Virus genome (UHGV): UHGV-0853290 | Reading direction: 5' to 3' (one strand) | DNA from: a virus | Length of the DNA: 12,700 bases | Shown here: piece after piece, positions 254 through 12,700 of the stretch | How the letters are laid out: the number at the start of each line of letters is the position of its first letter | Numbering within the stretch: position 1 is the stretch's first letter | The notes under the pieces: generated by a model | Told to the model about the DNA's origin: nothing | The model's database searches: none | What the model saw: only the letters and a program-made list of their open reading frames with translations | Made by a program: the position numbers and the translations under genes

Positions 254-964
254 TCAGAAGAACCCTGCCTTGTCGTTGATGTACTCCGCGTGCGTCTGGA
301 TATCACGCAGGCATTTGCTCACACCGACGATGTAGCAGAACATGGTGGTCAGTTCCGCCGCCGCGCCCGATACGTCGTGCCCGTCTTCCTGTAACTGGTT
401 AAGCAGATTCATCAGCAGTGAGTTCTCCGTCAGGCCGAGAACACCAGACGGCGAGTGAATCAGGCTGCGGTAGCCTGGCTTCAGCGGGGCGCTGTAGGTT
501 TTGTTCTCTATCTTCATTGCCTGCAGCACTGCTGACGCCGTGGCGTTGGCTACCTGGTCGGCAACCATCTTTATACGTTCTTCCTGCGGGAGCGAGTTTT
601 TAATGTAACTTCCGGTGCGGCGGATCTGAGGAAGAACCTCACCTGTAACCCATTTACGAAAGCGGTAGGGGATAGTGCCTGGTGTCACCGCATCGCGGCA
701 GCGGAGGATCAGTGTGTAGAGGCCTGACTCGGAGATGATGTTGATCTCTTTTACTCGGCTGTCAAAAATTGCACGATGTTCATGCCCTATGTTGAACATA
801 GACCTTTCATCATCATCCAGTTTTTCAAGTGCTTGGGTGACGTTTTGGATACGCAGCGCACTACAAACGTCTTGGGCTACAAACCATGGTTGGCCATCGA
901 TAATGATGGAACGGATAGGGTTAACAGATTCAAATTTGAAGATGGCAGTTTGAGCATTAGCCAT
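254..964 (-). CDS. phage antirepressor, Bro-N N-terminal domain plus KilAC/ANT C-terminal domain
   Basis: ORF 254-979; preferred start is the ATG at 964 (MANAQTAIFKF...) preceded by GGAGAT. N-terminus matches the Bro-N pattern (PWFVAQDVCSAL, ISESGLYTLILR, KWVTGEVLPQIRRTGSY). Confidence 0.85.
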   Translation of the reverse strand: MANAQTAIFKFESVNPIRSIIIDGQPWFVAQDVCSALRIQNVTQALEKLDDDERSMFNIGHEHRAIFDSRVKEINIISESGLYTLILRCRDAVTPGTIPYRFRKWVTGEVLPQIRRTGSYIKNSLPQEERIKMVADQVANATASAVLQAMKIENKTYSAPLKPGYRSLIHSPSGVLGLTENSLLMNLLNQLQEDGHDVSGAAAELTTMFCYIVGVSKCLRDIQTHAEYINDKAGFF

Positions 965-1120
965 GGTGGTTATCTCCACTTAGTGATTTTAATCACCACC
1001 GCAACGCCAATTACTGGTGGTGAACTGGACAAGGTTGGCGTACCGGCCTAAGTGGTACCGGCGTCCTTTCGGACCCCTGCCCAGCCCACCATAATTCGGA
1101 TATAGCTGTGCTTAACGCAT

Positions 1121-1143
1121 AAAAAAACCACGTCTGGCGTGGT
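1121..1143 (-). terminator. minus-strand intrinsic terminator or attenuator upstream of the antirepressor gene
   Basis: Stem ACCACG / CGTGGT (1127-1132 / 1138-1143) with a 5-nt loop, followed on the minus strand by U7 (rc of A7 at 1121-1127). Confidence 0.4.
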
Positions 1144-1233
1144 ATGCGCCACTTAGTAACTCGGGACGCCAATCCCGGCACTGGATTTTGCCAGTGCCTG
1201 ATTACTATGGCACAAGAGGAGTGCGATGTAAAT

Positions 1234-1248
1234 TTACCTCAAAGGTAA
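1234..1248. promoter_or_regulatory. box A palindrome TTACC-N5-GGTAA (copy 1)
   Basis: TTACCtcaaaGGTAA, perfect half-sites; same motif at 2755, 5365, 12558, 12620 and near-perfect at 1359 and 7539. Confidence 0.5.
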
Positions 1249-1277: not shown

Positions 1278-1290
1278 CCCTATGTGGTTT
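1278..1290 (+). promoter_or_regulatory. box B CCCTATGTGGTTT (copy 1)
   Basis: Lies 29 nt downstream of box A; near-identical 13-mers at 2798-2810 and 5410-5422 with similar spacing from a box A. Confidence 0.45.
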
Positions 1291-1385: not shown

Positions 1386-1901
1386 ATGAACACGAAGAGA
1401 GTTGCAGCGATGAGGCATAGACGCTTGACCTTGAAAAAGTCTGAAAAAGAAAAAGAGAAAAAGATGGTGATTGAAGCAGCCGCTTATGCTGCTGCCATAG
1501 CAACTGCCAATGCCATCAGGATTCATGATGAAGAAGTTGAGCAAAAATACCCGGTTATGTTCATCACTGAATACGACCAGCATGAGGCATTGTTAAAAAT
1601 CCGGGGCACATCTTTTGAAGGAATCTTGGCAGATAAGCTTCATCGTGCCTCATGTCAAACGAATATAATGCGACCTTACGAGTCAAGGCTAATCGAAACT
1701 GGACGCTCCAAGGATAAGCAGCAATTAGTTGAGATGATAAAGCGGTATTATAAGCCATCTTTTAAGCCTACAGCGTCACATGAGGTTGTAATGCGAGAAG
1801 TACCAAAGATGTCTGTTGAAAAATCGCATGCAATCTCGCGCAGGATGTTTGCACGCACTGCTGAAGATATGGCTCAGGAGCTCTACGACGATGCCGAATA
1901 A
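1386..1901 (+). CDS. hypothetical protein (171 aa), candidate antitoxin/partner of the downstream toxin-like gene
   Basis: ATG 1386 preceded by GGGGG; ORF open to TAA 1899-1901. Basic N-terminus (KRVAAMRHRRLTLKKSEKEKEKK) and acidic C-terminus (ELYDDAE). No family recognised. Its 3' end overlaps the start of the next gene by 11 nt. Confidence 0.6.
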   Translation: MNTKRVAAMRHRRLTLKKSEKEKEKKMVIEAAAYAAAIATANAIRIHDEEVEQKYPVMFITEYDQHEALLKIRGTSFEGILADKLHRASCQTNIMRPYESRLIETGRSKDKQQLVEMIKRYYKPSFKPTASHEVVMREVPKMSVEKSHAISRRMFARTAEDMAQELYDDAE

Positions 1902-2397
1902 ATTCCAGGGGTTGGTTCACCCTGGAATTTTTGGGAAGGACCCTGAGCTAATACCTATCAAAAACGCGTTCATAGATCACTGGCGCTACGGTCATCATAA
2001 GGATTTCGGAAAGGACACTCTGTTTCGGGATCCACCGAAAGAGATGCTGGAATATCACATACGCCACGTTCACGTAAACATCGGAAACTATACTGACAAG
2101 TTTGGTGAGAGCGGTACGGAACAATGCTGGAAAAACTGGGCATCCGGGAAGAAAGACAAGACCACCAACAAGCATAAAAAAATACCAACCAGTGATGTAT
2201 ATGTGATTTATCTTGTAACGTCTGAGCGACATGCGTTTCTTCTGGATTACTGGGATGAGCCAGCACACAAAAAAGTAGAAATTGACGAACAGAAACAAAA
2301 ACTTCTTGTCGAGTGTGACAGAATTTTGCGGCTGAAAAAGTTAGAATCCATGCCGCGCGATGCAAGTTTGTGGGACCCAGAATTTTACGACTGTTAA
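1891..2397 (+). CDS. YafO-family type II toxin-like protein (168 aa)
   Basis: ATG 1891 with AGGAG 10 nt upstream, overlapping the upstream stop. Motifs FGKDTLFRD, HIRHVHVN and VYVIYLVTSERHAFLLDYWDEPAHKK line up in order with my recollection of E. coli YafO (FGRDALYDD, HIHLAN, HLVYCQGAFDEQAWLLIAILKPEPHK). Confidence 0.55.
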   Translation: MPNKFQGLVHPGIFGKDPELIPIKNAFIDHWRYGHHKDFGKDTLFRDPPKEMLEYHIRHVHVNIGNYTDKFGESGTEQCWKNWASGKKDKTTNKHKKIPTSDVYVIYLVTSERHAFLLDYWDEPAHKKVEIDEQKQKLLVECDRILRLKKLESMPRDASLWDPEFYDC

Positions 2398-2398
2398 T

Positions 2399-2422
2399 GG
2401 CCGCTTTCGCGGCCTTTTCTTT
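2399..2422 (+). terminator. rho-independent terminator of the two-gene cassette
   Basis: Hairpin GGCCGCTTTCGCGGCC (2399-2414) followed by TTTTCTTT. The hairpin is the exact reverse complement of the one at 187-202. Confidence 0.7.
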
Positions 2423-2678
2423 ATGTGGTTTGTTTTCGTAATTGTTCGGCACAATAGTCGAGATGTGTTTGCAGATCCTGCATAGACATCTGCGAGCTGG
2501 TGACGTAGTTAATCAGTGCAGTCAGTTCGGCAAGTGGGCCATCGACATTAAATCCATCCTTATCGAGATCCCGGAGTAATTTCATCAAGTGCGATCCCTC
2601 CACCAGTGACCTGACGCCTCCCGGCGTGTGAATCCTTTCGGTAAATCCGTCTTCCAGTGGATAGTGATACTGCTGCAT
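2421..2678 (-). CDS. small KilAC/ANT C-terminal-domain protein (85 aa), paralog of the antirepressor C-terminus
   Basis: Start ATG at 2678 (MQQYHYPLEDG...) with GGAG 8 nt upstream. Aligns with the C-terminus of the 254-964 product (LAELT, DLQTH shared). The longer ORF-track version (to 2801) would run through the promoter and LexA box. Confidence 0.6.
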   Translation of the reverse strand: MQQYHYPLEDGFTERIHTPGGVRSLVEGSHLMKLLRDLDKDGFNVDGPLAELTALINYVTSSQMSMQDLQTHLDYCAEQLRKQTT

Positions 2679-2699
2679 CTTATCTTCTCCATGCAATAA

Positions 2700-2715
2700 C
2701 TGTATATTTATACAG
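2700..2715 (-). promoter_or_regulatory. LexA (SOS) box
   Basis: CTGTATATTTATACAG fits CTGT-N8-ACAG with an AT-rich centre; lies 22-37 nt upstream of the start codon at 2678. Confidence 0.65.
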
Positions 2716-2754
2716 TAGCAAATAATTTGTTTGCTATCCAGCACGTTTTGCAAA

Positions 2755-2769
2755 TTACCCGTAAGGTAA
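2755..2769. promoter_or_regulatory. box A palindrome TTACC-N5-GGTAA (copy 2)
   Basis: TTACCcgtaaGGTAA in the divergent intergenic region between the KilAC gene and the tailspike gene. Confidence 0.5.
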
Positions 2770-2797
2770 TATCTATTCTTATTCACATTCTTTCTAT

Positions 2798-2810
2798 CCA
2801 TATGTGGTTT
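2798..2810 (+). promoter_or_regulatory. box B CCATATGTGGTTT (copy 2)
   Basis: Lies 28 nt downstream of box A copy 2 and 64 nt upstream of the tailspike ATG. Confidence 0.45.
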
Positions 2811-2873
2811 TTAAGGTAATAAAATAACCGGATATGCGGCGCAACGGGTGCTGCGACTATCTGGAGATTTAAC

Positions 2874-4271
2874 ATGACGGTCTCAACCGAAGTTGACCAC
2901 AACGAATACACAGGTAACGGCGTTACGACATCGTTTCCGTATACCTTCAGGATTTTCCAGAAATCTGATCTGGTAGTACAAGTGGTTGACCTTGATGAAA
3001 ATATCACTGTTCTTGCTCTTGATACTGATTACGCAGTTACCGGGGCGGGAGGGTATAACGGTGGTAATGTAATTCTGTCGAAGGCGTTGGCTAACGGTTA
3101 TCAGATTTCTATATCTCGAGAGCTGCCGGTTACGCAGGAAACCGATCTGCGCAATCAAGGCAAGTTCTTTGCAGAGGTACATGAGGATGCGTTTGATAAG
3201 CTAACGATGTTGATCCAGCAGGTTAGAAGTTGGTTTAGCCTAGCGCTTCGCAAGCCATCATTCGTGGCAAACTATTATGATGCTCTGGGTAATTACATTC
3301 GCAATCTTCGTGACCCGTCACGACCTCAGGATGCGGCCACCAAGAATTATGTCGACTCTCTGGCAAATATTAACCTGTCGAGAACGTTGAGAACTCCAGA
3401 GGCAATACCTGAACTGCCTGGTGTAGAGCTGAGAAAAAATAAAATTGTAGCAATGGATAATGATGGCAATCCTATTATGGTATTGCCTGAATCAGGATCT
3501 GCTGCAGATGTTCTCATAGAGCTTGCAAAGCCAACTGGCGGCAGCCTGATTGGTTTACCTAACGGAACAGTGAGTGATGCAATTAATTATGTTACTCCAG
3601 AGATGTTTGGGGCAATAGGAGATGGTACTTTTCACGCTCTTTCTGAGCGTTTTGCGACACTGGCAGATGCGCAGGTTGTATACCCTCACGCCACATCACT
3701 TAGTCAGTCAATAGACTGGGCAGCAATGCAATCAGCTTTAAATTCTGGTTCTCAGACTCTGGATGTGAGTAAAGGAAATTATGTAGTAAACAGTAATTTA
3801 ACGGGAAACAAATCACTTCACTGGATCGGTGGAAGTGGTAAAAAGGTACAGATGATTGACGGATCTTTTATTCTTTTATCCGGGAGTCTTACTGCATTAC
3901 CTAAAATAACTGGCGGCATTAATCGCGTATCAAGGACGTTTACATTTGCATCTGTACCAGACTTATCAGCTGGCGATTCTTTTGTTGTATACAATCCGAC
4001 AGACTATAGTTGGTCTCATCACCGTGCCTACTACCGTGAAGGGGAGTTTTTCAAGGTTTTCAGCGCAACAGGAACCACGGTTAGCATCTACGGATTACCC
4101 TCGGATAATTATGTCGCCTCTGCGCTGGACGTTTATAAACTAAACGGAATTCGTGTTGTTCTTGATAATCTACACGTTGAAGGGGAAGACACATTAGATA
4201 GCGCACCTATAATTATCCGTTTCGGTCTTGATGTGGCGGTTAATAATTTTACCGGTAAAAAAATCAAATAA
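2874..4271 (+). CDS. tailspike/tail fiber protein, N-terminal fragment (T7 gp17-like N-terminal domain plus start of beta-helix), truncated by a frameshift
   Basis: ATG 2874 with GGAG 7 nt upstream. N-terminal pattern YTGNGVTTSFPYTF and NYIRNLRDPSRPQDAATKNYVDSL recalls the T7 tail-fibre N-terminal domain. Frame ends at TAA 4269-4271 just after an A7 run (4257-4263). Confidence 0.7.
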   Translation: MTVSTEVDHNEYTGNGVTTSFPYTFRIFQKSDLVVQVVDLDENITVLALDTDYAVTGAGGYNGGNVILSKALANGYQISISRELPVTQETDLRNQGKFFAEVHEDAFDKLTMLIQQVRSWFSLALRKPSFVANYYDALGNYIRNLRDPSRPQDAATKNYVDSLANINLSRTLRTPEAIPELPGVELRKNKIVAMDNDGNPIMVLPESGSAADVLIELAKPTGGSLIGLPNGTVSDAINYVTPEMFGAIGDGTFHALSERFATLADAQVVYPHATSLSQSIDWAAMQSALNSGSQTLDVSKGNYVVNSNLTGNKSLHWIGGSGKKVQMIDGSFILLSGSLTALPKITGGINRVSRTFTFASVPDLSAGDSFVVYNPTDYSWSHHRAYYREGEFFKVFSATGTTVSIYGLPSDNYVASALDVYKLNGIRVVLDNLHVEGEDTLDSAPIIIRFGLDVAVNNFTGKKIK

Positions 4272-5355
4272 TTATCAAATAGAGTTTGACCGTTGTTTTG
4301 GGGTTAATGTAAATACAGGTTCAGTAATAAACAATTCGCAAGGTTCTGATGAAGAATACGGGATTGTTATTTCAAACTGTACCGATGTTGTGGTTAATGG
4401 CGGTTCACATTACGCTAATCGCCACTGCATTGCAATTGGCGGACGAGGGGAAGTCTGCTCAATCCCTAACCGCAATATAAAAATTATTGGGGCTACTCTG
4501 CGTAACAATAGTGATGGGATTGGTGCTGCTGATATCCACGGAAACTCTGATAACATAGAATACTCCAACTGTGAATTATCATCAGCTAATATGGCTGGTC
4601 GTAACGTTAGGTACAAAAACTGCCGTATATTTCAAAGGCTGCGAGCAGACGGTTTATGTATTTACGGCTCTGAAATTGTCGGCGGGGTGTATGAAGTATC
4701 TAACTGCACTCTTATCACCCAGGGTGATCTCGACGCTTTTGGTGCTATAGCGTTGCAGGCTGCTAAGCCTATGAGAGAGAAATTCTCTCTCATAGTACGC
4801 AACATTACTGTTACTGGCGGTAATGGTGGCCCAAATGCAAAGTTAGTACATATCTTCTCTGCTGTTGGGGAAACACTCCCGATGGATGTTGATATCAGAG
4901 GAGTTCGCAATGAACTAACGGCGAGTATCGCAGTTCTTTACGCAAGACATACAACCAGCGCGGCAACCACGTTTATTTCCAATGGTTTCATTGTTGATGA
5001 TGTATACGGCCCACAAAATATGTATCTGGTGTATCCAAGTGGCACAGGTATTTCATCAATACCAACAAGGGAAATGGCACAAACAGGAAGCGTCACGATA
5101 ACATCGGCAGCAAATGCATTTAATACAGCTAGTGGCACTACGTCATTCAGGTACGGATACTCAAAGAAACCTAAATGCTCGTTTGGTGTTTCTTCGCCAA
5201 CAGGTTCGGCATTTACTAATCCTGGTCAGCCACCAGTGGCTCTCGCGTATAAGATATCAGGCACGGGTATCATACCAGCTATTACTGCGGCATCGGCATT
5301 CACAGCAGGTGTGGATGTTGATGTGAGCTGGAGCGTGAAAATATCTGACATTTAA
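4231..5355 (+). CDS. tailspike C-terminal fragment (right-handed beta-helix, depolymerase-like), in the +1 frame
   Basis: Frame open from 4228 to TAA 5353-5355; repeated Gly/Asn/Cys-rich beta-helix-like turns (VVNGGSHYANRHCIAIGG, NCTLITQG). Removing one A from the run at 4257-4263 fuses it to 2874-4271. Confidence 0.65.
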   Translation: MWRLIILPVKKSNNYQIEFDRCFGVNVNTGSVINNSQGSDEEYGIVISNCTDVVVNGGSHYANRHCIAIGGRGEVCSIPNRNIKIIGATLRNNSDGIGAADIHGNSDNIEYSNCELSSANMAGRNVRYKNCRIFQRLRADGLCIYGSEIVGGVYEVSNCTLITQGDLDAFGAIALQAAKPMREKFSLIVRNITVTGGNGGPNAKLVHIFSAVGETLPMDVDIRGVRNELTASIAVLYARHTTSAATTFISNGFIVDDVYGPQNMYLVYPSGTGISSIPTREMAQTGSVTITSAANAFNTASGTTSFRYGYSKKPKCSFGVSSPTGSAFTNPGQPPVALAYKISGTGIIPAITAASAFTAGVDVDVSWSVKISDI

Positions 5356-5364
5356 ATTTATCGT

Positions 5365-5379
5365 TTACCTTAATGGTAA
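5365..5379. promoter_or_regulatory. box A palindrome TTACC-N5-GGTAA (copy 3)
   Basis: TTACCttaatGGTAA, 10 nt after the tailspike stop codon. Confidence 0.5.
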
Positions 5380-7289: not shown

Positions 7290-7570
7290 TCATGGTACTG
7301 ATTTCCGGTGACGGTATATAAAACGGTACGGTAAAAATCTGTTTTTGGAAAGTTGTTACCAGTCAATTGGTTATGCTTACCGTAAATAATTGAGTGGGAA
7401 TGATTAACAGCTAACTCATAGCAACTCATTCCTATTCAGATACTAATTTAACCCTCTGTTTTTACAGAGGGTTTTTGTTTTTATGTATTCATTTCTATTC
7501 ACTCTACACCATATTTTTCTGCGGTACAGGTGACGGTATTACCTTAAAGGTATACTCTCATACCGTCATG
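7290..7570. other. attP-like region with clustered integrase arm-type repeats
   Basis: GGTGACGGTAT at 7307-7317 and again at 7529-7539; inverted copy ATACCGTCA at 7560-7568; further ACGGTA/CGGTAA units at 7323-7334 and TTACCGTAA at 7377-7385. Sits directly upstream of the integrase gene. Confidence 0.4.
7451..7482 (+). terminator. rho-independent terminator of the lysis operon
   Basis: Stem ACCCTCTG / CAGAGGGT with loop TTTTTA, followed by TTTTTGTTTTT. Confidence 0.8.
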
Positions 7571-8851
7571 AAAATGGTTTCTATACGGGTGAATTGTGCT
7601 TACCGATACAAAATTAAAAACCTCAAGCCGCAGGACAAACTGTACAAGGTCTCCGATCGTGACGGGCTGTATGTAGCTGTGCTTACGTCAGGCACGGTCT
7701 CGTTTCGCTATGACTACCGTATCAACGGTCGCCGCGAAACACTGGTAATCGGGCAGTATGGGCGTGACGGTATCAGCCTGGCAGAAGCGCGAGAAGAACT
7801 GATTGCTGCAAAGAAGCTGCTTAAAGCAGGCCAGTCACCGGCTGCGGCTAAACGTGACGGTATCAAAAAGATTCGTGGTGCAGAGACGTTTACGGTACAT
7901 ACCGACAGTTATATGAAACGCGTCATCCTGGCTGACAGTACCCGCGCAATGAAGCAGGCGGTGATCGACCGTGACATACTTCCAGTTCTTGGCAACAAAA
8001 TGATGACTGAAATTACCACATCGATGGTTCGTGATTTGTGTGACCGGATTGTCGAACGCGGTGGTCGGGCAACAGCAGTACAGGCAAGGGAGATCATCAG
8101 CAGCGTATACCGTCACGCCAATGACCGTGGTCATGGTTTGTTTAATCCTGCGGCTGACATTAAACCTTCGTCTATCGCCATATTTAAACCAAGAGAGCGA
8201 ACACTGACACCAGAAGAAATTGGCCTGTTCTTCCGCAAGCTGGATGCCATTGGTGCTATGGGCACTATGAAAATGGCTTTAAAGCTGGTGCTTATCACTA
8301 TGGTTCGTAAAGGCGAATTCACCAACGCAACGTGGGATGAAATAGATTTTAAAAAATGGACATGGACAATTCCTTCAGACCGCATGAAGGGAAGCCGGGC
8401 GCACGTTATTTACCTGCCTAAACAGGCTCAGGATATATTGGTCGGGTTGCAGATGTGCGCTGGTGGAAGTGAATATCTGGTTCCTGGTCGTTACAATTTC
8501 CGGAAGACATTATCTAATGCCGCGCTGAACTCTCTGATCGACAGAACGGTGAAAATAATAAATGAAGATGGTGAGCATATTCAGGGCTTCACCGTACACG
8601 ATATGCGCCGTACAGCCAGTACATTGTTGCATGAGGCTGGTTATCCTTCAGACTGGATTGAAAAGGCTCTGGCACATGAGCAGAAAGGTGTGCGCGCCGT
8701 ATATAACAAAGCGGAATACGCCAGACAGCGCGCCTACATGTTGCAGCAGTGGGCCGATATGATTGATTCCTGGATTGACGGGGAGCATACGGATCTGATT
8801 CCGTTCTCCCCGTCGAAGTTTGAGAAGTGGATGGCGGAGAATAACGTTTAA
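7568..8851 (+). CDS. int: tyrosine-type phage integrase
   Basis: Frame 7475-8851; preferred start ATG 7568 (7574 also possible), since 7475 is a TTG inside the terminator U-run. N-terminal arm-binding pattern (LKPQDKLYKVSDRDGLYVAV...FRYDYRINGRRE) and C-terminal HDMRRTAST ... VYNKAEY. Confidence 0.85.
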   Translation: MKMVSIRVNCAYRYKIKNLKPQDKLYKVSDRDGLYVAVLTSGTVSFRYDYRINGRRETLVIGQYGRDGISLAEAREELIAAKKLLKAGQSPAAAKRDGIKKIRGAETFTVHTDSYMKRVILADSTRAMKQAVIDRDILPVLGNKMMTEITTSMVRDLCDRIVERGGRATAVQAREIISSVYRHANDRGHGLFNPAADIKPSSIAIFKPRERTLTPEEIGLFFRKLDAIGAMGTMKMALKLVLITMVRKGEFTNATWDEIDFKKWTWTIPSDRMKGSRAHVIYLPKQAQDILVGLQMCAGGSEYLVPGRYNFRKTLSNAALNSLIDRTVKIINEDGEHIQGFTVHDMRRTASTLLHEAGYPSDWIEKALAHEQKGVRAVYNKAEYARQRAYMLQQWADMIDSWIDGEHTDLIPFSPSKFEKWMAENNV

Positions 8852-12557: not shown

Positions 12558-12572
12558 TTACCGTCGAGGTAA
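12558..12572. promoter_or_regulatory. box A operator TTACC-N5-GGTAA overlapping the early promoter -10/+1
   Basis: TTACCgtcgaGGTAA; nested in a larger inverted repeat TTACCTCG-N12-CGAGGTAA (12545-12572). Confidence 0.5.
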
Positions 12573-12600
12573 TGATTATGCGTATCTGGTTTGATGTCAA
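12572..12600 (-). promoter_or_regulatory. sigma70-type early promoter (minus strand)
   Basis: On the minus strand: -35 TTGACA (rc of 12595-12600), 17-bp spacer, -10 AATCAT (rc of 12572-12577); about 35 nt upstream of the start at 12538. Confidence 0.45.
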
Positions 12601-12619
12601 TAGATATGAGTTAAAAAAA

Positions 12620-12634
12620 TTACCCATAAGGTAA
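12620..12634. promoter_or_regulatory. box A operator TTACC-N5-GGTAA upstream of the early promoter -35
   Basis: TTACCcataaGGTAA, 19 bp upstream of the -35 hexamer. Confidence 0.5.
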
Positions 12635-12671: not shown

Positions 12672-12700
12672 ACTTACTGAAAAATATGATTTTATTTTTG

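What the first reader, a model, noticed from the sequence alone, without database searches (positions are those of the whole stretch)
2679..2873. Consensus LexA box directly upstream of a small KilAC-only paralog of the antirepressor
CTGTATATTTATACAG (2700-2715) is a near-consensus SOS box and lies 22-37 nt upstream of the start of the 85-aa gene at 2421-2678. That product is only the C-terminal domain of the full Bro-N/KilAC antirepressor (254-964), at roughly half identity by eye. LexA-controlled antirepressor-like genes are the known route by which some temperate phages (186 Tum, Gifsy-type) couple induction to DNA damage. No LexA box was seen upstream of the full-length antirepressor. Inference: the short paralog is the SOS-responsive element, perhaps acting as a decoy or modulator of the full-length protein or of the repressor.
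Basis: partly seen in the sequence, partly recalled or inferred. Interest (0 to 1): 0.6.

Follow-up and report, generated by a model that had tools for sequence, protein, structure and literature searches.

The report
LexA-controlled small phage antirepressor (SPC32H-type Ant)
The palindrome is a genuine, near-perfect SOS (LexA) box on the promoter of a small antirepressor gene that has already been characterised and crystallised in the related Salmonella phage SPC32H, so this is an ordinary E. coli copy of a known DNA-damage induction switch.

Summary
CTGTATATTTATACAG (2700-2715) is the only exact CTGT-N8-ACAG in the window. It scores above every reference E. coli LexA box in my weight matrix. 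It lies 22-37 nt upstream of the 85-aa gene at 2421-2678 (-).

That gene is the ortholog of ant of Salmonella phage SPC32H: 88% identity, and E=1e-47 to PDB 5D50 "Anti-repressor protein". SPC32H Ant is a published LexA-repressed antirepressor that inactivates a non-cleavable repressor, Rep.

The box is in register in 10 epsilon15-like phages from four host genera. In 119 of 120 viral contigs chosen by flanking sequence alone, both arms are intact while the centre and the neighbouring spacer vary. SPC32N, the published constitutive mutant, differs from SPC32H by one C-to-A change in the ACAG arm.

Rep co-occurs with Ant in 35 of 35 phage records, and its gene starts at the window's right edge.

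The "KilAC" label is wrong: neither protein hits Pfam KilAC. The large protein is Bro-N plus an Ant-like C-terminal domain (42% identity). It has its own control, a P1-type C4 antisense RNA/isrK module. The decoy idea has no support.

Verdict: already known, low interest.

The parts
2698..2717 (.). LexA (SOS) box, 20-mer AACTGTATATTTATACAGTA; core CTGT-N8-ACAG at 2700-2715
   Evidence: 18/20 to consensus. Scores 26.9 bits, above all 20 reference boxes. Only exact match in the window. In register in 10 related phages. Arms intact in 119/120 IMG/VR contigs chosen by flanks only.
2421..2678 (-). ant: 85-aa SPC32H-type antirepressor
   Evidence: 88% identical to SPC32H_020 'ant: anti-repressor protein'. 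E=1.3e-47 to PDB 5D50 chain E 'Anti-repressor protein'. PHROG 450.
2687..2690 (-). Shine-Dalgarno GGAG, 8 nt before the ant ATG
   Evidence: Read from the sequence. GGAG is invariant in the 10-phage alignment.
2712..2740 (-). Inferred ant promoter: -35 TGGATA (2740->2735), 17-nt spacer, -10 TACTGT (2717->2712) overlapping the left arm of the LexA box
   Evidence: The only promoter candidate found at the same alignment columns in all 10 orthologous regions. Weak score (5.2); the transcription start is not mapped. An alternative, TTGCAA 2753->2748 / CAAATT 2729->2724, would put the box at about +1 to +18.
2754..2770 (.). Palindrome ATTACCCGTAAGGTAAT, predicted operator of the phage repressor (Rep)
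   Evidence: TTACC-N5-GGTAA occurs 7 times in the window against 0.24 expected. The orthologous epsilon15 site is annotated 'protein_bind: repressor, lysogeny'. There are 15 such sites in epsilon15.
2399..2414 (.). GC-rich hairpin between the convergent genes 1891-2397(+) and ant(-). It has a T-run only on the + strand.
   Evidence: Terminator scan. The same hairpin follows ant in SPC32H.
254..964 (-). 236-aa Bro-N protein with an Ant-like C-terminal domain (residues about 155-231, window 272-502)
   Evidence: Pfam Bro-N 1e-19, no KilAC. C-terminus is 42% identical to small Ant and hits 5D50_E at 1e-13. Its C-terminal 98 aa are 99% identical to the vB_EcoP_ZX5 gene annotated 'anti-repressor'; I take this to be that paper's Bro-N ORF4, whose overexpression lowered lysogen counts about 1000-fold (PMC9782041).
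1013..1096 (-). C4 antisense RNA (P1 immI type) upstream of the Bro-N gene
   Evidence: Rfam RF01695, 66 bits against a gathering score of 45. Its unpaired CCACUUAG and ACGCCAA are complementary to 1149-1156/976-983 and 1166-1172/1004-1010.
1121..1210 (-). isrK-like leader RNA (1121-1197) with the a1/b1 C4 targets (1158-1210), ending in a hairpin plus U-run at 1143->1127
   Evidence: Rfam isrK, 67 bits against a gathering score of 50. c4-a1b1 scores 42.8, just under its gathering score of 46.7. Terminator scan.
976..1010 (-). Second C4 target pair (UUGGCGU 1010->1004, CUAAGUGG 983->976) abutting the SD of the Bro-N gene
   Evidence: Exact complementarity to the C4 loops.
12558..12634 (.). Two more Rep-operator palindromes beside the 3' end of rep, which starts at the window's right edge
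   Evidence: In EC.W1-9 the repressor match begins 6 nt beyond the end of the window match. Epsilon15 has three annotated repressor sites at the same place.

Best explanation
The window comes from an epsilon15-like (Uetakevirus) temperate phage or prophage of E. coli. The interval 2679-2873 is the divergent control region between the tailspike gene and ant.

**Proposed mechanism**
1. In an undamaged lysogen, host LexA sits on the box at 2698-2717. The box overlaps the -10/start region of the ant promoter, so ant stays silent.
2. DNA damage activates RecA, LexA cleaves itself, and the 85-aa Ant is made.
3. By homology with SPC32H, Ant tetramers bind the phage repressor Rep. Rep is a two-HTH protein with no S24 self-cleavage domain. 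Ant strips it from its TTACC-N5-GGTAA operators, which sit in front of most phage transcription units.
4. The lytic programme then starts.

**What is shown here:** the box, its quality and its conservation; the orthology of Ant and Rep to the crystallised SPC32H pair; and their strict co-occurrence.

**What is inferred:** LexA binding, the exact transcription start, and Ant-Rep binding in this E. coli lineage.

The larger Bro-N protein is a second, separately regulated carrier of the same Ant-type domain. It is gated by a C4 antisense RNA rather than by LexA.
For: - **Orthology.** 88% identity to SPC32H ant, with the same position divergent from the tailspike gene. PDB 5D50_E E=1.3e-47.
- **Box quality.** 26.9 bits, above all reference boxes.
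- **Box conservation.** In register in Escherichia, Salmonella, Enterobacter and Klebsiella phages. In 120 IMG/VR contigs selected only by flanking TGCTGGATAG...GCATGGAG (38 distinct sequences), the arms TACTGTA/ATACAGT are essentially invariant while the box centre and the upstream spacer vary.
- **Natural mutant.** SPC32N differs from SPC32H by C->A in the ACAG arm. This matches the published constitutive-Ant mutant (Kim & Ryu 2013 abstract, from memory).
- **Promoter.** A position-conserved -35/-10 candidate overlaps the box.
- **Repressor.** Rep homologs are in all 35 Ant-bearing phage records. phiV10 Rep hits 5D50_A at 4e-42 and has HTH domains but no Peptidase_S24.
- **Literature.** PMC7380047 states that LexA self-cleavage leads to synthesis of Ant, which inhibits the repressor, citing Kim & Ryu 2013. 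[quoted passage not shown] A 2026 preprint shows E. coli Uetakevirus phiV10-type prophages induced 21- to 47-fold by a DNA-damaging microcin.
Against: - Nothing was measured in this phage.
- E. coli-lineage Rep is only 42% identical to epsilon15/SPC32H Rep, while Ant is 84-88% identical. Transferring the Ant-Rep contact is therefore an inference.
- The conserved promoter candidate is weak (TGGATA/TACTGT, score 5.2), and stronger non-conserved candidates exist.
- The Klebsiella members have ATGT instead of CTGT in one arm.
- The two primary SPC32H papers are not in the held library. Their content is cited from memory of the abstracts and from secondary papers.
- The only functional study of a near-identical E. 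coli phage credited antirepression to the Bro-N protein and ignored the small gene.
Confidence: 0.85

Rival explanations
1. The small Ant is SOS-induced but works mainly through the large Bro-N/Ant-domain protein. It could form mixed oligomers with that protein's homologous C-terminal domain and so act as an activator, decoy or modulator, rather than acting directly on Rep.
For: The two share a 42%-identical domain. The SPC32H domain is reported to form tetramers (PMC9638917). Both genes are present together in most E. coli members. The Bro-N protein showed antirepressor-like effects when overexpressed in ZX5.
Against: SPC32H, epsilon15 and the other Salmonella members have the small Ant and Rep but no Bro-N fusion, and there Ant alone suffices. 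In phiV10 the Bro-N gene is broken into two pieces while ant is intact. 42% identity gives no assurance of hetero-oligomerisation.
Confidence: 0.07
2. In the E. coli lineage the diverged Rep is no longer the target of small Ant. The Bro-N fusion has taken over antirepression, and the small gene is a conserved SOS-induced gene with another role.
For: Rep is 42% identical but Ant 88% identical between lineages. ZX5 ORF4 overexpression lowers lysogeny.
Against: Ant and Rep co-occur in 35/35 records. The Ant gene, the box and the operator palindromes are all retained. The Ant-type domain, free or fused, is found only in Rep-bearing phages. The Rep recognition-helix stretch NLVNRW and the C-terminal end are conserved.
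Confidence: 0.05
3. The palindrome is a chance AT-rich inverted repeat, or serves another purpose such as a site for a phage protein or control of the divergent tailspike gene. It is not a LexA operator.
For: 18% of shuffles contain an exact CTGT-N8-ACAG. The region is AT-rich and holds other palindromes.
Against: The score exceeds all reference boxes and all shuffles. The arm-conserved, centre-variable pattern holds in 119/120 independent contigs. The SPC32H/SPC32N one-base difference lies in the arm. The box is 158 nt from the tailspike start and adjacent to ant.
Confidence: 0.03

Closest known systems
Salmonella phage SPC32H Rep-Ant-LexA antirepression switch (Kim & Ryu 2013, J Virol 87:11775; Kim et al. 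2016, PNAS 113:E2480; PDB 5D50/5D4Z)
   Same: - Ant is orthologous (88% identity, 85 vs 86 aa).
- The gene is in the same position, divergent from the tailspike.
- The LexA box is in the same register, about 22 nt before the ATG.
- The GGAG/ATG context is the same.
- A homologous two-HTH Rep without an S24 domain is present.
- The TTACC-N5-GGTAA palindrome lies in the same place in the intergenic region.

   Different: - The host is E. coli.
- Rep is only 42% identical.
- The box centre differs (ATAAATAT vs ATGTTTAT).
- About 2.2 kb of extra genes lies between ant and the tail genes: a two-gene cassette, plus a second Ant-domain protein fused to Bro-N behind a C4 RNA module. SPC32H has none of these.
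LexA-controlled antirepressors of other temperate phages: coliphage 186 Tum, Fels-2 Tum, Gifsy-1/3 GfoA/GfhA (Shearwin 1998; Lemire 2011)
   Same: The logic is the same: a non-cleavable repressor, a small antirepressor, and a LexA box on the antirepressor promoter (PMC7380047).
   Different: No sequence relationship was detected. A tblastn of Ant against 50,697 phage records finds only 35 epsilon15-like or related Klebsiella records. The SPC32H authors described Ant as structurally distinct from the Sipho-/Myoviridae antirepressors (abstract, from memory).
P1/P7 immI module (c4 antisense RNA - icd - ant) and Salmonella Gifsy-1 IsrK-AnrP
   Same: This applies to the large Bro-N gene only. Rfam C4 and isrK hits are above gathering score. 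Two C4 loops are complementary to duplicated target pairs, the second abutting the ribosome-binding site. A repressor-operator-like palindrome lies at the upstream promoter.
   Different: There is no icd-like ORF between C4 and the antirepressor. The antirepressor is Bro-N plus an SPC32H-Ant-like domain, not P1 Ant1/2. None of this concerns the LexA box.
Pfam KilAC / ANT domain (PF03374) antirepressors
   Different: No KilAC hit at E<=0.01 in either protein. The C-terminal domain is instead the SPC32H-Ant fold family (PHROG 450).

Membership tests
SPC32H-type LexA/Ant/Rep antirepression module | Small (~86 aa) Ant protein homologous to SPC32H Ant | tested here: met
   88% identity by tblastn. 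phmmer E=1.3e-47 over residues 2-85 to PDB 5D50_E.
SPC32H-type LexA/Ant/Rep antirepression module | LexA box immediately upstream of ant, overlapping its promoter | tested here: met
   The box is present, scores 26.9 bits and is in register with the SPC32H box. Overlap with the promoter is inferred from a position-conserved -35/-10 candidate. The transcription start is not mapped.
SPC32H-type LexA/Ant/Rep antirepression module | Cognate Rep repressor (two HTH domains, no RecA-dependent cleavage domain) in the same genome | tested here: inconclusive
   rep lies just outside the window. In EC.W1-9 and phiV10 it starts 6 nt beyond the matched end. Rep is in 35/35 Ant-bearing phage records. phiV10 Rep hits 5D50_A at 4e-42 and has no Peptidase_S24. 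Predicted Rep operators are in the window.
SPC32H-type LexA/Ant/Rep antirepression module | Synteny: ant divergent from the tailspike gene, at the end of the tail/injection gene block | tested here: met
   In the window the block is interrupted by inserted genes at 254-2397.
SPC32H-type LexA/Ant/Rep antirepression module | LexA binds the box and represses ant; Ant binds Rep and releases it from DNA | not testable with these tools
   Needs a gel shift or footprint, reporter assays and binding assays.
KilAC / ANT domain (Pfam PF03374) | Significant match to the KilAC profile | tested here: not met
   No hit at E<=0.01 for the 85-aa or the 236-aa protein. Only Bro-N (1.1e-19) hits, in the large one.
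Bro-N domain proteins (Pfam PF02498) | Match to Bro-N above gathering score | tested here: met
   Large protein residues 17-112, 71.3 bits against a cut-off of 25.6. Absent from the small protein.
186 Tum / Gifsy GfoA-type antirepressors | Sequence homology to Tum/GfoA | tested here: not met
   tblastn of Ant against the phage collection at E<=1e-5 returns only epsilon15-like and related Klebsiella records. No profile or structure comparison was run, so very remote homology is not excluded.
P1 immI-type C4 antisense control (large Bro-N gene only) | C4 RNA with two loops complementary to duplicated a/b targets, the second at the ribosome-binding site of the regulated gene | tested here: met
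   Rfam C4, 66 bits (gathering score 45). isrK, 67 bits (gathering score 50). a1b1, 42.8 bits (gathering score 46.7, just missed). Exact 7-8 nt complementarities at 1166-1172/1149-1156 and 1004-1010/976-983.

The most novel reading that the evidence does not exclude
E. coli epsilon15-like phages may run two independent inputs into one repressor through the same Ant-type domain.

- **Input 1:** a free 85-aa Ant released by LexA cleavage (SOS).
- **Input 2:** a Bro-N-Ant fusion held off by a C4 antisense RNA and a Rep-operator-overlapped promoter. It could act as a feed-forward lock once Rep starts to fall, or as an anti-immunity function on superinfection.

The two might also form mixed tetramers. 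The paralogy between the Bro-N protein's C-terminus and SPC32H Ant did not appear in the papers I could search. The one E. coli study (ZX5) overlooked the small gene altogether.
Probability: 0.3. Interest if true: 0.4.

Novelty: already known. Interest (0 to 1): 0.15.

Why it matters
The finding adds no new biology. It matters mainly for annotation.

- The gene is named 'hypothetical protein' in RefSeq E. coli genomes, and 532 of 5,426 complete genomes carry the locus.
- It has no Pfam or NCBIfam family and sits in a PHROG of 'unknown function'.
- Yet it is the ortholog of a crystallised, genetically proven SOS-controlled antirepressor.
- Recognising it explains why phiV10-type prophages respond to DNA-damaging agents.
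- It also corrects the view, taken in the ZX5 study, that the Bro-N protein is the phage's only antirepressor.

Tried and rejected
- **KilAC assignment.** Rejected: no PF03374 hit in either protein.
- **Longer ORF.** The 126-aa ORF from the ATG at 2801 would span the box. Rejected because all annotated orthologs and the 86-aa crystallised protein start at the downstream ATG, and only that ATG has a conserved GGAG.
- **Other LexA boxes.** The next best site (7891-7910, 11.5 bits, inside the integrase gene) scores below the weakest reference box. None lies upstream of the Bro-N gene.
- **LexA control of the tailspike gene.** Rejected: the box is 158 nt from its ATG and sits on the ant side.
- **Homology to Tum/Gifsy antirepressors.** No hits.
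- **Defence-system or TA identity of genes 1386-2397.** PADLOC, Pfam and NCBIfam give nothing. Only a RefSeq name ('YafO family toxin') on a 98%-identical protein.
- **Reading the primary papers.** Kim & Ryu 2013, Kim et al. 2016 and Kropinski 2007 are not held.
- **Tailspike split.** I tried to resolve it by comparison with fetched loci, but no homolog of the distal part was among them.
- **Searches not run.** I did not run the large protein-database or structure-prediction searches. An 88%-identical solved structure made them unnecessary.

Full report

Yes. CTGTATATTTATACAG lies at 2700-2715. It is the only exact CTGT-N8-ACAG in the window. Shuffles give 0.21 per window and 36 of 200 contain at least one, so the bare pattern is only mildly unusual.

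The full 20-mer, AACTGTATATTTATACAGTA (2698-2717), is much more telling. It matches the E. coli consensus at 18 of 20 positions. I built a symmetrised weight matrix from 20 E. coli SOS boxes, listed from memory and therefore approximate. The site scores 26.9 bits. The reference sites themselves score 13.5-26.6 bits. The next best site in the window scores 11.5, and the best of 200 shuffles 17.8.

The box is 22-37 nt upstream of the ATG at 2678 of the minus-strand ORF 2421-2678 (85 aa). A GGAG lies 8 nt before that ATG.

The 85-aa product aligns with residues 155-228 of the 236-aa protein encoded at 254-964(-), at 42% identity, E=1e-15. No LexA-like site precedes that larger gene.

**2. What is the small gene?**

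A tblastn against 50,697 phage genomes finds it in 35 records. All are epsilon15-like podoviruses (Uetakevirus) or related prophages of Escherichia, Salmonella, Enterobacter and Klebsiella.

In Salmonella phages SPC32H and SPC32N the 88%-identical gene is annotated 'ant: anti-repressor protein'. The protein matches PDB 5D50 chain E, 'Anti-repressor protein', at E=1.3e-47 over its whole length.

This is the system described by Kim & Ryu (J Virol 2013) and Kim et al. (PNAS 2016). Neither paper is in the held library. As I recall the abstracts:
- The SPC32H repressor Rep is not cleaved during the SOS response.
- Rep is inactivated by the small Ant, whose expression LexA represses.
- SPC32N carries a single-base change in the LexA box that makes Ant constitutive.

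Secondary sources held here say the same:
- PMC7380047 states that LexA self-cleavage leads to synthesis of Ant, which inhibits the repressor.

**3. Is the box conserved as a LexA site should be?**

I aligned the tailspike-ant intergenic region of ten phages from four host genera. The box is in the same register in all of them, about 22 nt before the ATG.

SPC32H and SPC32N differ in this region at one base, ATACAG versus ATAAAG, in the right arm. This independently reproduces the published mutant.

As a test that does not select on the box itself, I scanned IMG/VR for TGCTGGATAG-N39-GCATGGAG. The 120 contigs returned hold 38 distinct sequences. The arms TACTGTA and ATACAGT are invariant except for one contig with ATATAG and one with GTACAG. 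The six central positions and the 12 nt upstream of the box vary freely. That is the signature of selection on LexA half-sites.

The three Klebsiella members aligned have ATGT for CTGT in one arm.

**4. Promoter geometry (inferred)**

A simple sigma-70 scan of all ten orthologous regions finds one candidate at the same alignment columns everywhere. It has -35 TGGATA (2740->2735), a 17-nt spacer and -10 TACTGT (2717->2712), which is the left arm of the box. It is weak by score (5.2).

In the window an alternative exists: TTGCAA 2753->2748 / CAAATT 2729->2724, score 7.7. It would start transcription at about 2717.

Either way the box covers the -10-to-+20 region, where LexA would occlude RNA polymerase. 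This agrees with the published statement that the site overlaps the ant promoter. No start site has been mapped.

**5. The partner repressor**

Rep is not in the window, but it is adjacent. In EC.W1-9 and phiV10 the repressor match begins 6 nt past the point where the window alignment ends.

Rep homologs occur in all 35 Ant-bearing records. phiV10 Rep matches 5D50 chain A 'Repressor' at 4e-42. It has HTH domains but no S24 peptidase domain, which fits a repressor that needs an antirepressor.

The palindrome TTACC-N5-GGTAA occurs seven times in the window against 0.24 expected, at 1234, 1359, 2755, 5365, 7539, 12558 and 12620. It occurs 15 times in epsilon15. There the GenBank record labels these sites 'protein_bind: repressor, lysogeny'; this is an annotation, not an experiment. 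One copy (2754-2770) lies inside the finding's interval, about 40 nt upstream of the LexA box.

One caveat applies. E. coli-lineage Rep is only 42% identical to epsilon15/SPC32H Rep, although the NLVNRW helix and the C-terminal end are kept. Ant, by contrast, is 84-88% identical. Ant-Rep binding in this lineage is therefore inferred, not shown.

**6. The 'full-length antirepressor'**

Pfam finds Bro-N (1.1e-19) and nothing else. There is no KilAC/ANT match in either protein. The C-terminal 80 residues of the large protein instead match the SPC32H Ant structure sequence (5D50_E, 1.2e-13) and PHROG 450. The large protein is therefore Bro-N fused to an Ant-type domain.

In the phage collection this domain, free or fused, is found only in the same Rep-bearing genomes.

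The large gene has its own, different control. Rfam finds three elements between 1013 and 1210 on the minus strand:
- an isrK-like RNA at 1121-1197 (67 bits, gathering score 50), ending in a hairpin plus U-run;
- a C4 antisense RNA at 1013-1096 (66 bits, gathering score 45);
- the a1/b1 C4 target element at 1158-1210 (42.8 bits, just under its gathering score of 46.7).

The unpaired C4 segments CCACUUAG and ACGCCAA are exactly complementary to two target pairs:
- 1166-1172 with 1149-1156;
- 1004-1010 with 976-983, the last abutting the GGAG of the Bro-N gene.

That is the P1/P7 immI logic. A Rep-type palindrome (1234-1248) overlaps the -10 of a leftward promoter-like site upstream. This explains positively why no LexA box is seen there.

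For the near-identical E. coli phage vB_EcoP_ZX5, a Bro-N 'ORF4 anti-repressor' was overexpressed and lowered lysogen counts about 1000-fold. I take ORF4 to be the ZX5 gene annotated 'anti-repressor', whose C-terminal 98 aa are 99% identical to those of the window's large protein. That paper mentions neither the small Ant nor LexA (PMC9782041).

**7. Mechanism**

The most likely mechanism (confidence about 0.85):
1. LexA holds ant off in the lysogen.
2. DNA damage removes LexA.
3. Ant accumulates and, by homology to SPC32H, binds Rep and releases it from its operators across the genome.
4. Lytic genes fire.

A 2026 preprint reports 21- to 47-fold induction of phiV10-type Uetakevirus prophages of E. 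coli by a DNA-damaging microcin. This agrees with the model, although that work proposes no mechanism.

The Salmonella members work with Ant and Rep alone and lack the Bro-N fusion. In phiV10 the fusion gene is split while ant is intact.

**8. Novelty and score**

This is an E. coli ortholog of an experimentally and structurally characterised switch, so I rate it already known.

The residual points of interest are small:
- **Annotation gap.** The locus is in 532 of 5,426 complete E. coli genomes and is named 'hypothetical protein' there. It has no Pfam or NCBIfam family, and its PHROG is of 'unknown function'.
- **Two regulatory routes.** The same Ant-type domain sits under two different controls in one phage: LexA for the free form, and C4 RNA for the Bro-N fusion.

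Interest 0.15.

**9. Limits**

- The promoter calls are consensus matches only.
- The content of the primary papers comes from memory and from citing papers.
- No binding or expression was or could be measured.

Noticed in passing
window 976-1210 (-), upstream of the Bro-N gene 254-964: A complete P1-immI-like antisense module. It has an isrK-like leader RNA with terminator (1121-1197), a C4 RNA (1013-1096), and duplicated C4 target pairs (1166-1172/1149-1156 and 1004-1010/976-983), the last abutting the ribosome-binding site of the Bro-N/Ant-domain gene.
   Followed up: yes
window 1234-1248, 1359-1373, 2755-2769, 5365-5379, 7539-7553, 12558-12572, 12620-12634: The palindrome TTACC-N5-GGTAA occurs 7 times against 0.24 expected, in front of most transcription units. 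It is the site that the epsilon15 GenBank record annotates as the lysogeny-repressor operator. It is conserved between E. coli and Salmonella phages even though their repressors are only 42% identical.
   Followed up: partly
window 1281-1290, 2422-2431, 2801-2810 (+); one-mismatch copies at 2200, 5413, 12583: TATGTGGTTT is repeated on the + strand: 6 matches with one mismatch or fewer, against 0.97 expected. Three copies lie 46-48 nt to the right of a repressor-type palindrome. One copy lies inside the 3' end of ant. Function unknown; it may be part of the rightward promoters.
   Followed up: no
window 1386-1901 and 1891-2397 (+): A two-gene overlapping cassette is inserted between the Bro-N gene and ant. 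It has a promoter-like site at 1327-1356 followed by an operator-like palindrome. RefSeq names a 98%-identical copy of the second protein 'type II toxin-antitoxin system YafO family toxin'. Pfam, NCBIfam and PADLOC give no hit here; PHROGs 9503 and 1651 are of unknown function.
   Followed up: partly
window 2874-4271 and 4228-5355 (+), A7 run at 4257-4263: The tailspike reading frame is split into a 465-aa ORF and a 375-aa ORF that overlap at a run of seven A. Reading across it with a one-base shift gives a continuous ...FTGKK/SNNYQIEF... sequence. This could be a sequencing error, a pseudogene or slippage. No close homolog of the distal part was among the fetched loci, so it was not resolved.
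   Followed up: partly
phage records; window right edge about 12690-12700: Ant is 84-88% identical between the E. coli and Salmonella lineages, while its presumed target Rep is only 42% identical. This asymmetry is unexplained. The stop codon of rep appears to lie within the last few bases of the window.
   Followed up: partly
L012 (phiV10) 1052-1731; rows H111-H114: In phiV10 and the O157 typing phages 9 and 10, the Bro-N/Ant-domain gene is broken into two ORFs (p23 and p22), so its Ant-like C-terminal domain is probably not made. The small LexA-controlled ant is intact.
   Followed up: no
E. coli genome search; L133: The ant/LexA-box locus is present in 532 of 5,426 complete E. coli genomes. 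It lies next to tailspikes with many different enzymatic heads: GH28-like, SGNH/GDSL hydrolase, endosialidase and beta-helix. ant is uniformly annotated 'hypothetical protein'.
   Followed up: partly
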